Shown one piece after another: positions 1,324 through 48,774 of a stretch of DNA of 64,000 nt (position 1 is its first letter; the number at the start of each line of letters is the position of its first letter). The notes under the pieces were generated by a model that was not told the DNA's origin, searched no databases, and saw only the letters and a list, made by a program, of their open reading frames with translations. The stretch lies in assembly GCF_009914755.1 (NCBI RefSeq), contig NC_060928.1; one strand, given 5' to 3'. The stretch comes from the human T2T-CHM13v2.0 reference genome, Homo sapiens. A program made the translations under genes and the position numbers.

Positions 1324-2230
1324 GGGGGAGGAGCCAAGATGGCCGAATAGGAACAGCTCCGGTCTACAGCTCCCAGCGTGAGCGACGCAGAAGACGGGTG
1401 ATTTCTGCATTTCCATCTGAGGTACCGGGTTCATCTCACTAGGGAGTGCCAGACAGAGGGCGCAGGTCAGTGGGTGCGCACACCATGCGCGAGCCAAAGC
1501 AGGGCAAGGCATTGCCTCACTTGGGAAGCGCAAGGGGTCAGGGAGTTCCCTTTCTGAGTCAAAGAAAGGGGTGACGGACGGCACCTGGAAAATCGGGTCA
1601 CTCCCACCCGAATACTGCGCTTTTCCGACGGGCTTAAAAAACGGTGCACCACGAGATTATATCCCTCACCTGGCTTGGAGGGTCCTACGCCCACGGAGTC
1701 TCGCTGATTGCTAGCACAGCAGTCTGAGATCAAACTGCAAGGCGGCAGTGAGGCTGGGGGAGGGGCGCCCGCCATTGCCCAGGCTTGCTTAGGTAAACAA
1801 AGCAGCCAGGAAGCTCCAACTGGGTGGAGCCCACCACAGCTCAAGGAGGCCTGCCTGCCTCTGTAGCCGCCACCTCTGGTGGCAGGGCACAGACAAACAA
1901 AAAGACAACAGTAACCTCTGCAGACTTAAATGTCCCTGTCTGAAAGCTTTGAAGAGAGCAGTGGTTCTCCCAGCATGCAGCTGGAGATCTGAGAATGGGC
2001 AGACTGCCTCCTCAAGTGGGTCCCTGAACCCTGACCCCTGAGCAGCCTAACTGGGAGGCACCCCTCAGCAGGGGCACACTGACACCTCACACGGCAGGGT
2101 ATTCCAACAGACCTGCAGCTGAGGGTCCTCTCTGTTAGAAGGAAAACTAACAAACAGAAAGGACATCCACACCAAAAACCCATCTGTACATCACCATCAT
2201 CAAAGACAAAAAGTAGATAAAAGCACAAAG
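1324..2230 (+). promoter_or_regulatory. L1 5'UTR internal sense/antisense promoter, CpG-rich, intact YY1 site
   Basis: CAAGATGGCC at 1335-1344; many CpGs retained; ~907-bp length fits the form lacking the 129-bp ZNF93 site. Confidence 0.85.
1467..1775 (-). CDS. ORF0: L1 antisense ORF0 (102 aa, open)
   Basis: ATG at 1775-1773; MAGAPPPASLPPCSLISDCCASNQRDSVGVGP matches primate L1 ORF0. Confidence 0.7.
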   Translation of the reverse strand: MAGAPPPASLPPCSLISDCCASNQRDSVGVGPSKPGEGYNLVVHRFLSPSEKRSIRVGVTRFSRCRPSPLSLTQKGNSLTPCASQVRQCLALLWLAHGVRTH

Positions 2231-3247
2231 ATGGGGAAAAAACAGAACAGAAAAACTGGAAACTCTAAAAAGCAGAGTGCCTCTCCTCCTCCAAAGGAAC
2301 GCAGTTCCTCACCAGCAACGGAACAAAGCTGGATGGAGAATGACTTTGACGAGCTGAGAGAAGAAGGCTTCAGACGATCAAATTACTCTGAGCTACGGGA
2401 GGACATTCAAACCAAAGGCAAAGAAGTTGAAAACTTTGAAAAAAATTTAGAAGAATGTATAAGTAGAATAAGCAATACAGAGAAGTGCTTAAAGGAGCTG
2501 ATGGAGCTGAAAACCAAGGCTCGAGAACTACGTGAAGAATGCAGAAGCCTCAGGAGCCCATGCGATCAACTGGAAGAAAGGGTGTCAGCGATGGAAGATG
2601 AAACGAATGAAATGAAGCGAGAAGGGAAGTTTAGAGAAAAAAGAATAAAAAGAAATGAGCAAAGCCTCCAAGAAATATGGGACTATGTGAAAAGACCAAA
2701 TCTACGCCTGATTGGTGTACCTGAAAGTGATGGGGAGAATGGAACCAAGTTGGAAAACACTCTGCAGGATATTATCCAGGAGAACTTCCCCGATCTAGCA
2801 AGGCAGGCCAATGTTCAGATTCAGGAAATACAGAGAATGCCACAAAGATACTCCTCGAGAAGAGCAACTCCAAGACACATAATTGTCAGATTCACCAAAG
2901 TTGAAATGAAGGAAAAAATGTTAAGGGCAGCCAGAGAGAAAGGTCGGGTTACCCTCAAAGGGAAGCCCATCAGACTAACAGCGGATCTCTCGGCAGAAAC
3001 CCTACAAGCCAGAAGAGAGTGGGGGCCAATATTCAACATTCTTAAAGAAAAGAATTTTCAACTCAGAATTTCATATCCAGCCAAACTAAGCTTCATAAGT
3101 GAAGGAGAAATAAAATACTTTACAGACAAGCAAATGCTGAGAGATTTTGTCACCACCAGGCCTGCCTTACAAGAGTTCCTGAAGGAAGCACTAAACATGG
3201 AAAGGAACAACCGGTACCAGCCACTGCAAAATCATGACAAAATGTAA
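2231..3247 (+). CDS. ORF1: L1 ORF1p RNA-binding chaperone, full length 338 aa
   Basis: Uninterrupted MGKKQNRK...; REKG, ARR and YPAKLS motifs present. Confidence 0.92.
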   Translation: MGKKQNRKTGNSKKQSASPPPKERSSSPATEQSWMENDFDELREEGFRRSNYSELREDIQTKGKEVENFEKNLEECISRISNTEKCLKELMELKTKARELREECRSLRSPCDQLEERVSAMEDETNEMKREGKFREKRIKRNEQSLQEIWDYVKRPNLRLIGVPESDGENGTKLENTLQDIIQENFPDLARQANVQIQEIQRMPQRYSSRRATPRHIIVRFTKVEMKEKMLRAAREKGRVTLKGKPIRLTADLSAETLQARREWGPIFNILKEKNFQLRISYPAKLSFISEGEIKYFTDKQMLRDFVTTRPALQEFLKEALNMERNNRYQPLQNHDKM

Positions 3248-3310
3248 AGACCATCGAGACTAGGAAGAAACTGCATCAACTAACGAGCAAAATCACCAGC
3301 TAACATCATA

Positions 3311-47786: not shown

Positions 47787-48241
47787 CTTTGTGCTTTTAT
47801 CTACTTTTGGTCTTTGATGATGGTGACGTACAGATGGGTTTTTGGTGTGAATGTCCTTTCTGTTTGTTAGTTTTCCTTCTAACAGAGAGGACCCTCAGCT
47901 GCAGGTCTGTTGGAATACCCTGCCGTGTGAGGTGTCAGTGTGCCCCTGCTGGGGGATGCCTCCCAGTTAGGCTGCCCGGGGGTCAGGGGTCAGGGACCCA
48001 CTTGAGGAGGCAGTCTGCCCATTCTCAGATCTCCAGCTGCATGCTGGGAGAACCACTGCTCTCTTCGAAGCTGTCAGACAGGGACATTTAAGTCTGCAGA
48101 GGTTACTGCTGTCTTTTTGTTTGTCTGTGCCCTGCCCCCAGAGGTGGAGCCTACAGTGGCAGGCAGGCCTCCTTGAGCTGTGGTGGGCTCCACCCAGTTG
48201 GAGCTTCCCAGCTGCTTTGTTTACCTAATCAAGCCTGGGCA

Positions 48242-48550
48242 ATGGCGGGCGCCCCTCCCCCAGCCTCGCTGCCACCTTGCAGTTTGATCTCAGACTGCTG
48301 TGCTAGCAATCAGCGAGACTCCGTGGGCATAGGACCCTCCGAGCCAGGTGCGGGATATAATCTCGTGGTGCGCCGTTTTTTAAGCCCATCGGAAAAGCGC
48401 AGTATTCGGGTGGGAGTGACCCAATTTTCCAGGTGCCGTCCATCACCCCTTTCTTTGACTCAGAAAGGGAACTCCCTGACCCCTTGCGCTTCCCAAGTGA
48501 GGCAATGCCTCGCCCTGCTTTGGCTCGCGCACGGTGCACGCACCCACTGA
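48242..48550 (+). CDS. ORF0: L1 antisense ORF0 (102 aa, open)
   Basis: ATG at 48242; MAGAPPPASLPPCSLISDCCASNQRD. Confidence 0.7.
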   Translation: MAGAPPPASLPPCSLISDCCASNQRDSVGIGPSEPGAGYNLVVRRFLSPSEKRSIRVGVTQFSRCRPSPLSLTQKGNSLTPCASQVRQCLALLWLAHGARTH

Positions 48551-48774
48551 CCTGCGCCCACTATCTGGCACTCCCTAGTGAGATGAACCCGGTACCTCAG
48601 ATGGAAATGCAGAAATCACCCGTCTTCTGCATCGCTCACGCTGGGAGCTGTAGACCGGAGCTGTTCCTATTCAGCCATCTTCAGGTAATAGCAGCTCTAT
48701 GTCAACATATTATATTTTCAATTTATGATGAGTTTATCAGGATATAACCCCATCGTAAGTTAAGGAGCAGCTGT

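What the first reader, a model, noticed from the sequence alone, without database searches (positions are those of the whole stretch)
1324..48681. Two separately inserted, inverted L1PA2 copies share three ORF2-killing mutations
Seen: copies A and B have different TSDs, tails and 5' junctions, so they are separate insertions. Both carry (i) A6>A5 frameshift at ELEKTT (5832-5836 / 44181-44185), (ii) TAC>TAA after KTTMR (6643-6645 / 43372-43374), (iii) TTA>TGA inside the C-terminal zinc knuckle after GEIGTL (6730-6732 / 43285-43287). They also share bases I recall as non-consensus along the whole length: AGCTCCAAC, GTCCTCTCTG, AAAGCACAAAG, TTTAAGCCAAC, GCACCAAGAT, ATCAAGAGAA, CCCATATCACC, CAACATACA, AACCACTGTG, TCGGGAGAT. 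Known: L1 proteins act mainly in cis and the ORF2p C-terminal cysteine-rich domain is required for retrotransposition. Inference: the shared haplotype was already dead, so identity arose by ectopic gene conversion between the inverted arms, or by trans-mobilisation of a non-autonomous L1 lineage.
Basis: partly seen in the sequence, partly recalled or inferred. Interest (0 to 1): 0.85.

Follow-up and report, generated by a model that had tools for sequence, protein, structure and literature searches.

The report
Neighbouring dead L1 copies exchanged mutations
Two separately inserted, oppositely oriented LINE-1 copies 35 kb apart on human chromosome 4 carry the same three gene-killing mutations, most likely because one copy overwrote part of the other by gene conversion after insertion, which is a known process and not a new kind of mobile element.

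Summary
Copy A (1324-7356, +) and copy B (42650-48681, -) are full-length L1PA2-like elements with different target-site duplications, tails and 5' junctions. Both carry the A5 frameshift, the TAA stop and the TGA stop in ORF2.

In this genome the combined haplotype occurs only here. TAA plus TGA occurs at 3 places: A, B and an unrelated older chr3 copy that keeps A6. Marker words for other shared variants found no true relatives. No dispersed defective lineage was found.

A and B are otherwise ordinary: 2.6-2.75% apart, like random panel pairs (2.5%). The TAA and TGA stops lie in a 391-bp stretch (6387-6777) with no A/B difference (simulation p=0.012; 0 of 190 panel pairs identical there). 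That stretch is enriched in shared derived variants (6 of 28, p=0.008). A has twice B's private changes in the 3' 4 kb (55 vs 27, p=0.003), which a single copying event does not predict.

Best reading: interlocus gene conversion, confidence about 0.7. The frameshift's route is less certain, since it recurs in 92 of 8,004 copies.

This is a new example of a known process. Unexplained side finding: the TGA variant (249 of 11,447 copies) clusters regionally among unrelated L1s.

The parts
1324..7356 (+). Copy A: full-length L1PA2-like LINE-1 with a short A-tail. ORF1 (2231-3247) is open. ORF2 is heavily broken, with private frameshifts near 3684 and 3855 and several private stops besides the three shared lesions.
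1315..1324 (+). 5' target-site duplication of A (AGGTCAGCTG). The 3' copy is at 7360-7369.
   Evidence: read directly
42650..48681 (-). Copy B: L1PA2-like LINE-1 lacking about 12 nt at its 5' end. ORF1 (46770-47786) has three stops. ORF2 is open for codons 1-840 and carries four disabling changes in all: one private stop at 44184-44186 and the three shared lesions.
48681..48701 (-). 21-nt filler between B's 5' target-site duplication (48702-48719) and the L1 body. It is unique in the window and does not match A's flanks. B's 3' target-site duplication is at 42632-42649.
5832..5836 (+). Lesion 1 in A: A5 run (frameshift after ORF2p residue 840). The B counterpart is at 44181-44185.
   Evidence: background 92 of 8,004
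6643..6645 (+). Lesion 2 in A: TAA stop after ...KTTMR. The B counterpart is at 43372-43374.
6730..6732 (+). Lesion 3 in A: TGA stop after ...GEIGTL in the cysteine-rich region. The B counterpart is at 43285-43287.
6387..6777 (+). 391-bp tract with no A/B difference (B counterpart 43240-43630). It holds six shared derived variants (6407, 6430, 6528, 6645, 6731, 6766), including lesions 2 and 3. This is the inferred gene-conversion tract.
56014..57050 (-). Copy D: an older 5'-truncated L1 3' fragment, 95.4% identical to A. It also carries TGA at the same codon (56637-56639) and 6430A, but not TAA, 6407A or 6766C. Its link to the A/B exchange is unresolved.

Best explanation
A and B are two independent L1PA2-like insertions in inverted orientation, 35 kb apart. 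After insertion they exchanged sequence by interlocus (non-allelic) gene conversion. At least one fairly recent tract of about 0.4 kb (6387-6777) copied one element's accumulated decay mutations, including the TAA and TGA stops, onto the other. Probably the older, more decayed A was the donor and the less decayed B the acceptor.

The A5 frameshift and the few other rare shared variants further upstream come from older, smaller exchanges, from a shared source sub-lineage, or, for A5, from an independent homopolymer slip.

Shown: separate insertion, the shared lesions, confinement to this locus, the difference-free tract enriched in shared variants, and unequal private divergence. Inferred: the conversion mechanism itself, its direction and its timing.
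For: (1) Different target-site duplications, tails and 5' ends; homology ends at the element borders.

(2) The haplotype is confined to the locus. TAA+TGA occurs at 3 places genome-wide: A, B and a chr3 copy that is 95.3% identical to A and keeps A6. Marker words for three other sets of shared variants hit A and B plus 2, 4 and 4 other places. The 9 of those 10 that I fetched are 93.9-96.7% identical to A and share only the selected markers or hot CpG sites. None carries any of the three lesions.

(3) The longest A/B difference-free run is 391 bp. A CpG-aware simulation gives p=0.012, or 0.042 on non-CpG sites only. None of 175 comparison pairs with at least 140 differences reaches 391 (maximum 374). 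None of 190 comparison pairs is identical in 6387-6777 (mean 10.6 differences, minimum 3).

(4) That tract holds 6 of 28 shared derived variants (p=0.008) and 4 of 8 rare non-CpG ones (p=0.001). Shared variants lie in longer difference-free intervals than random sites (p=0.0025). Six shared variants fit the 5.4 expected from A's private density better than the 2.6 expected from B's (likelihood ratio 4.6).

(5) In 3336-7340, the part not used to pick the comparison set, A has 55 private changes and B 27 (p=0.0026; non-CpG 47 vs 23, p=0.0056). The longest run of A-only changes is 17 (permutation p=0.0016). One copying event predicts equal counts.

(6) Decay-type shared changes are concentrated in 5831-6906: 6 of 9 rare ones (p=0.0017, boundaries chosen after seeing the data). 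Upstream, 9 of 10 shared coding variants are synonymous. This does not fit a uniformly decayed dead progenitor.

(7) From the literature: conversion between neighbouring dispersed repeats, including old inactive copies overwriting younger ones, is described for Alu (passages read in PMC6598467 and PMC8230782).
Against: The signal rests largely on one tract. Outside it, shared variants do not sit in unusually long identical intervals: the four rare non-CpG sites outside it (2223, 3565, 3876, 5874) lie between A/B differences 152, 61, 107 and 57 bp apart by my reading of the list, close to the null mean of 93 bp.

A/B differences over twelve 500-bp windows are not significantly uneven against a CpG-aware expectation (chi-square p=0.19). 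Clustering of shared sites along the element is weak (p=0.02-0.22). The Wald-Wolfowitz runs test on private changes is not significant (z=-1.45).

Rare shared variants at 2223, 3565 and 3876 lie in normally diverged sequence and need either older exchanges or a shared source. Lesion 1 lies between A/B differences at 5831 and 5856, so its route is not shown.

The comparison set is only 20 copies and was chosen by likeness to A's first 2 kb. Several region boundaries and the 'robust' site list were chosen after seeing the data. No ape orthologues or other human genomes were available, so the order of events is inferred. The subfamily name L1PA2 was not checked against a repeat library.
Confidence: 0.7

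Rival explanations
1. A dead progenitor was mobilised in trans. An ORF2-defective L1 that already carried all three lesions was retrotransposed by another L1's proteins. It gave both copies, or one copy is the parent of the other.
For: Rare shared variants are spread from 1496 to 6906, not only in the tract. A and B are sisters in a tree of the 3' 1.35 kb with the lesion sites masked. Low-level trans-complementation of defective L1s is established (recalled: Wei et al. 2001; the search gave listings only).
Against: No other member of such a lineage exists in this genome. No transduced flank links the copies. Two products of a rare event landing 35 kb apart in 3.1 Gb is very unlikely a priori (my estimate, about 2e-5 per pair), whereas conversion requires proximity. 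Private changes are unequal, 55 vs 27. The 391-bp difference-free tract and its enrichment in shared variants are not predicted. Shared decay is concentrated in the last 1.1 kb, while upstream shared coding variants are 9 of 10 synonymous.
Confidence: 0.1
2. Shared live source plus a later local exchange. A and B descend from the same minor, then still functional, L1PA2 source. Or one was an active parent of the other. That explains the upstream, mostly synonymous shared variants. The stops were acquired by one copy after insertion and passed to the other by the 0.4-kb conversion. The frameshift arose independently or by a second small exchange.
For: Nine of 10 shared coding variants upstream of lesion 1 are synonymous, as expected for variants filtered in an active lineage. 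There is no shared stop or frameshift in ORF1 or in ORF2 codons 1-840. The tract evidence is the same as for the best explanation. The A5 background is 1.15%.
Against: It still needs two products of a rare source 35 kb apart. A conversion donor's lineage variants would be transferred as well and would give the same pattern. No other member of such a sub-lineage was found. The unequal private counts are not explained.
Confidence: 0.15
3. Coincidence or assembly mixing. The lesions are recurrent mutations that arose independently in both copies, or the assembly swapped reads between the two arms.
For: Each lesion is individually recurrent: 92 of 8,004, 77 places, and 249 of 11,447. The TGA variant is locally common, in 3 of 3 matching copies in the window.
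Against: The joint occurrence is unique genome-wide apart from one unrelated copy with two of the three lesions. At least five further rare non-CpG variants are shared. The arms differ by 2.6% and lie in unique flanks. Long accurate reads span whole 6-kb elements (general knowledge of this assembly, not tested here).
Confidence: 0.04

Closest known systems
Non-allelic gene conversion between neighbouring Alu elements (Aleshin & Zhi 2010 and Zhi 2007, as cited in PMC6598467 and PMC8230782; I read passages of the two citing papers only)
   Same: Independently inserted dispersed repeats lying close together share non-diagnostic mutations. Old inactive copies can overwrite younger ones.
   Different: Here the repeats are 6-kb L1s 35 kb apart and inverted. 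The Alu effect is reported mainly within about 10 kb. The transferred changes here are ORF-killing mutations.
L1-L1 gene conversion reported in surveys of young human L1s (recalled: Myers et al. 2002; Vincent et al. 2003; Tremblay et al. 2000 for double-strand-break repair in mouse cells; none was read here)
   Same: Partial replacement of one L1 by sequence from another after insertion.
   Different: Those cases were recognised by subfamily-diagnostic bases, usually at one orthologous site. Here two same-age neighbours share private decay mutations.
Arm-to-arm conversion in large inverted repeats and palindromes (recalled: human Y palindromes, Rozen et al. 2003)
   Same: Inverted arms on one chromosome exchange sequence.
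   Different: Palindrome arms stay above 99.9% identical through continuing conversion. A and B are 97.3% identical, so exchange here was rare and patchy, and the arms are not a duplication.
Trans-complementation of defective L1s and non-autonomous riders such as Alu, SVA and processed pseudogenes (recalled: Wei et al. 2001; listings only)
   Same: It would also give several copies sharing ORF-killing lesions.
   Different: It predicts dispersed copies and equal divergence since copying. Neither is seen here.

Membership tests
LINE-1 (L1PA2-like) retrotransposon insertion | Target-site duplications and a 3' A-tail at each copy | tested here: met
   A has 10-bp duplications and B has 18-bp duplications; both have A-tails.
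LINE-1 (L1PA2-like) retrotransposon insertion | ORF1 and ORF2 (endonuclease, reverse transcriptase, cysteine-rich end) homologous to human L1 | tested here: met
   B's ORF2 pieces align to solved human ORF2p residues 1-840 and 841-1111, with E=0 and 4e-174.
LINE-1 (L1PA2-like) retrotransposon insertion | Assignment to subfamily L1PA2 by diagnostic positions (RepeatMasker/Dfam) | not testable with these tools
No repeat library is available here.
Interlocus (non-allelic) gene conversion | Donor and acceptor are distinct loci, not a duplication | tested here: met
   Different duplications, filler and tails; homology ends at the element borders.
Interlocus (non-allelic) gene conversion | A bounded tract much less diverged than the rest of the pair | tested here: met
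   391 bp with 0 differences. Simulation p=0.012. None of 175 similar-divergence pairs reaches 391. None of 190 pairs is identical there.
Interlocus (non-allelic) gene conversion | The tract carries the donor's private mutations as shared derived variants | tested here: met
   6 of 28 shared variants lie in 6.5% of the length (p=0.008). 4 of 8 rare non-CpG ones lie there (p=0.001).
Interlocus (non-allelic) gene conversion | Mosaic pattern over the whole pair (several tracts) | tested here: inconclusive
   Window chi-square p=0.19. Clustering of shared sites p=0.02-0.22. Private-change asymmetry p=0.003.
Interlocus (non-allelic) gene conversion | Orthologous copies in outgroup species show the pre-conversion state | not testable with these tools
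   No ape or other human assemblies are held.
Non-autonomous (trans-mobilised) L1 lineage | Several dispersed copies share the same disabling lesions and other lineage markers | tested here: not met
   Only A and B carry the haplotype. The chr3 double-stop copy is older and keeps A6. None of the 9 fetched marker-sharing copies has a lesion.
Non-autonomous (trans-mobilised) L1 lineage | Equal divergence of sister copies since the copying event | tested here: not met
   55 vs 27 private changes in 3336-7340 (p=0.0026).

The most novel reading that the evidence does not exclude
The A/B pair may be one visible case of a wider process. Single rare variants, including ORF2-killing ones, may spread among unrelated neighbouring L1 copies over tens of kilobases up to megabases. 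The route could be short-tract, possibly GC-biased, ectopic conversion, giving regional concerted evolution of dispersed L1s. The TTA>TGA variant fits this. It is commoner (249) than the other two substitutions at that site together, most of them the transition (157). 34 of 81 carriers on chromosomes 1-3 have another carrier within 100 kb, against 0 of 35 for the control variants. The 20 carriers I fetched are separate insertions of different ages.
Probability: 0.25. Interest if true: 0.7.

Novelty: new member of a known kind. Interest (0 to 1): 0.4.

Why it matters
Shared disabling mutations in L1 copies are usually read as descent from one source, and so as evidence about which elements were mobile. 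This pair shows that neighbouring copies can acquire each other's lesions after insertion. That can mislead source-lineage trees, age estimates from divergence, and counts of 'intact' versus 'dead' elements. It also shows a decayed element disabling, or further disabling, a less decayed neighbour. The case itself is a modest, well-delimited example of a known process. If the regional clustering of the TGA variant is real, it would be the more consequential result.

Tried and rejected
(1) A dispersed defective subfamily. Genome-wide pattern searches for the lesions alone and combined, and for three sets of other shared variants, found no relatives.

(2) A's dense private changes in 4861-5447 as alleles of another lineage. 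A 38-mer holding four of them is unique to A. Only 7 of 59 A-private states match the older neighbour E at 15997-20260.

(3) Flank or transduction links between A and B. None was found.

(4) The TGA copies as a clade. They are scattered over the tree and no linked variant exists.

(5) TGA clustering from segmental duplication. The 3' flanks of the 20 fetched copies all differ.

(6) A regional T>G mutation bias. Private spectra are alike, with T>G at 13.0% against 13.6% and 15.6%.

(7) Mutation at L1-endonuclease-like TTT/A sites. No excess appears at 21 other such sites.

(8) Long identical tracts around the shared site between neighbouring TAA or TGA carriers. These are not clearly longer than background.

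(11) Literature searches found no report of this locus and no systematic survey of conversion between neighbouring L1s. I read only listings, plus passages of four papers, so I make no claim that none exists.
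Full report
WHAT IS THERE

The window is human chr4 (T2T-CHM13). It holds two full-length L1PA2-like LINE-1 copies in opposite orientation. Inverted homology runs 1336-7351 against 42666-48681 and stops at the element ends.

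Copy A (+) is flanked by AGGTCAGCTG at 1315-1324 and 7360-7369. Copy B (-) is flanked by GAAAATATAATATGTTGA at 48702-48719 and 42632-42649. B begins about 12 nt into the element behind a 21-nt filler that occurs nowhere else in the window, and it has a different, interrupted A-tail. They are separate insertions.

THE LESIONS

Both copies have A5 where 19 of 20 comparison copies have A6 (5832-5836 / 44181-44185). Both have TAA at 6643-6645 / 43372-43374 and TGA at 6730-6732 / 43285-43287. Against solved human ORF2p (8uw3_A), B reads residues 1-840 in one frame and 841-1111 in the next, then stops.

B's ORF2 has one further private stop directly before the A5 run. Its ORF1 has three stops. A's ORF1 is open, but its ORF2 has many more private frameshifts and stops.

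Six occur in 0-1 of 20 comparison copies, one in 3 of 20, and three are common (7, 9 and 11 of 20).

HOW RARE ARE THE LESIONS

The window's own genome could be searched by exact pattern.
- A5 with its flanks: 92 of 8,004 copies, or 1.15%.
- TAA 30-mer: 77 places. I did not measure a denominator for this one.
- TGA 33-mer: 249 of 11,447, or 2.2%.

Each lesion alone is therefore recurrent, and the fetched carriers are of many ages. The TAA carriers are 86-96.6% identical to A and the TGA carriers 90-97.4%.

TAA and TGA together occur at only three places: A, B and chr3:157.37 Mb. The chr3 copy is 95.3% identical to A and keeps A6, so it is an older, unrelated element.

Exact words covering other shared variants hit A and B plus 2, 4 and 4 other places:
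- 2223G with 2278T
- 5873A, 5874T and 5878A
- 6407A with 6430A

I fetched 9 of those 10; the chr21 place was not fetched. They are 93.9-96.7% identical to A and share only the chosen markers or hot CpG sites (2-6 of 7-23 comparable sites). None has any of the three lesions.

The haplotype is therefore confined to this locus.

A AND B AGAINST ORDINARY COPIES

A DNA search with A's first 2 kb scored 40 of 7,147 candidates. B was not among the 40. I fetched the best 20 in full as a comparison set.

Divergences:

| Comparison | Divergence |
|---|---|
| Comparison pairs with each other | 2.53% |
| A with B | 2.75% |
| A with the set | 3.0% |
| B with the set | 2.9% |

A and B are thus no closer overall than unrelated copies.

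I polarised changes by the set's majority state (at least 16 of 20). A has 81 private changes and B has 79. Twenty-two are shared, and 7 more are shared where the set is split. Thirteen shared variants have 0-1 carriers in the set: 1496, 1996, 2223, 2278, 2812, 3565, 3876, the A5 deletion, 5874, 6407, 6645, 6731 and 6766. Four of these (1496, 1996, 2278, 2812) are CpG transitions that could be parallel.

THE TRACT

A and B have no difference at all between 6386 and 6778, a run of 391 bp.
- A CpG-aware simulation gives p=0.012 for so long a run, or 0.042 on non-CpG sites only.
- Among 190 comparison pairs, 4 reach 391 bp, and all 4 have only 53-78 differences. None of the 175 pairs with at least 140 differences does (maximum 374; A/B has 156).
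- In 6387-6777 itself the comparison pairs differ at 10.6 sites on average (minimum 3, none identical). A differs from each comparison copy at 6-14 sites.

The same tract holds 6 of the 28 shared derived variants (p=0.008) and 4 of the 8 rare non-CpG ones (p=0.001). Shared variants in general sit in longer difference-free intervals than random sites (p=0.0025).

This is what a conversion tract should look like. The donor's lifetime of private mutations becomes shared, and no differences have arisen since. Six shared variants match the 5.4 expected from A's private density better than the 2.6 expected from B's (likelihood ratio 4.6). Both stops lie in this tract.

UNEQUAL DECAY

In 3336-7340, the part not used to choose the comparison set, A has 55 private changes and B 27 (p=0.0026; non-CpG 47 vs 23, p=0.0056). 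There is a run of 17 consecutive A-only changes in 4861-5447 (permutation p=0.0016). A 38-mer holding four of those changes is unique to A, so they are private mutations and not another lineage's alleles.

A single copying event, whether parent to daughter or two siblings, predicts equal counts. An older A and a younger B that later exchanged patches fits.

In 1336-3335 the counts are 25 vs 36 (p=0.2). That part is biased towards A by the way the set was chosen.

WHERE THE SHARED DECAY LIES

Six of the nine rare non-CpG shared changes (counting the frameshift) fall in 5831-6906 (p=0.0017, boundaries chosen after seeing the data). Upstream of the frameshift, 9 of 10 shared coding variants are synonymous. 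Downstream, 4 of 11 are synonymous and 2 are stops.

The upstream shared variants therefore look like variants filtered in an active lineage. Either both copies inherited them or a donor's lineage alleles were transferred. The downstream ones look like neutral decay. A long-dead progenitor would be expected to show shared decay along its whole length.

RESULTS THAT WEAKEN THE MOSAIC READING

- A/B differences over twelve 500-bp windows are not significantly uneven against a CpG-aware expectation (p=0.19).
- Clustering of shared sites is weak (p=0.02-0.22).
- The runs test is not significant (z=-1.45).
- Outside the one tract, shared variants do not sit in unusually long identical stretches (my reading of the difference list against the null).
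- Lesion 1 lies between differences at 5831 and 5856, so its route is open. It could be an older small exchange, a shared source, or an independent slip (1.15% background).
- The comparison set is small, and some site lists and boundaries were chosen after seeing the data.

VERDICT

Interlocus gene conversion between two neighbouring, independently inserted L1s best explains the shared stops (confidence about 0.7 for the explanation as stated). A trans-mobilised dead lineage gets about 0.1. A shared live source plus a later local exchange gets about 0.15. Chance or assembly mixing gets a few per cent.

Conversion between neighbouring dispersed repeats is known for Alu, including old copies overwriting young ones (passages read in PMC6598467 and PMC8230782). 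It has been reported for L1 as well (recalled, not read here). This is therefore a new example of a known process.

SIDE FINDING, UNEXPLAINED

The TGA variant is odd. At that site the counts are 11,041 T, 249 G and 157 C or A, so the transversion outnumbers the transition.

On chromosomes 1-3, 34 of 81 TGA copies have another TGA copy within 100 kb. The uniform expectation is 2.5, and the control variants at the same site give 0 of 35. In the window all three copies matching the 33-mer carry it: A, B and the older fragment D at 56014-57050. Two more carriers lie at chr4:78.47 and 78.86 Mb.

The 20 fetched carriers are separate insertions with different flanks. They are scattered over the tree, have no linked variant, show no general T>G excess, and show no excess at other TTT/A sites.

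The TAA and A5 lists also contain close pairs. Whether some of those lie in segmental duplications was not checked. Spread by short-tract conversion among neighbours is a possible cause but was not tested.

Noticed in passing
Genome-wide; in the window 6730-6732, 43285-43287, 56637-56639: The ORF2 TTA>TGA variant is carried by 249 of 11,447 L1 copies that match the 33-mer. That is more than T>C and T>A together (157). It is strongly clustered regionally, for example chr2:205-229 Mb, chr3:67-90 Mb and chr4:77-87 Mb. The 20 carriers I fetched are separate insertions of different ages. No cause was found.
   Followed up: partly
56014-57050 (-): An older 5'-truncated L1 3' fragment (95.4% identical to A), 7 kb beyond B, has the same TGA stop. 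It is identical to A/B over 6646-6765 but lacks the flanking shared variants. This could be a short exchange or an independent change.
   Followed up: partly
Genome lists (e.g. chr2:39.98-40.02 Mb, chr4:55.94/56.00 Mb, chr8:65.86 Mb, chr10:37.25 and 44.98-45.03 Mb, chr12:42.03/42.07 Mb): Carriers of the TAA variant and of the A5 frameshift also occur in close pairs or triplets more often than uniform placement predicts. The fetched TAA neighbours differ in age and structure. Some A5 pairs may lie in duplicated regions; this was not checked.
   Followed up: partly
4861-5447 (+): A carries 17 consecutive private changes with none in B over about 600 bp, including a three-base change at 5000-5002. 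A 38-mer holding four of them is unique in the genome. This may be a local burst of mutation in A, or loss of B's own changes.
   Followed up: partly
2231-3247 (+) and 46770-47786 (-): The two copies are damaged in opposite ways. A keeps an open 338-codon ORF1 but has a badly broken ORF2. B has three stops in ORF1, two of them adjacent within a cluster of B-private changes at 2558-2564 (A coordinates), yet an ORF2 open for its first 840 codons.
   Followed up: yes
L071 (chr13:11.41 Mb) and chr21:8.47 Mb: An older L1 on two acrocentric short arms shares the exact 71-mer with 2223G and 2278T, but only two further shared A/B variants (4483T and 6528A, both also carried by copies of the comparison set). 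It is probably one copy duplicated between the short arms.
   Followed up: partly
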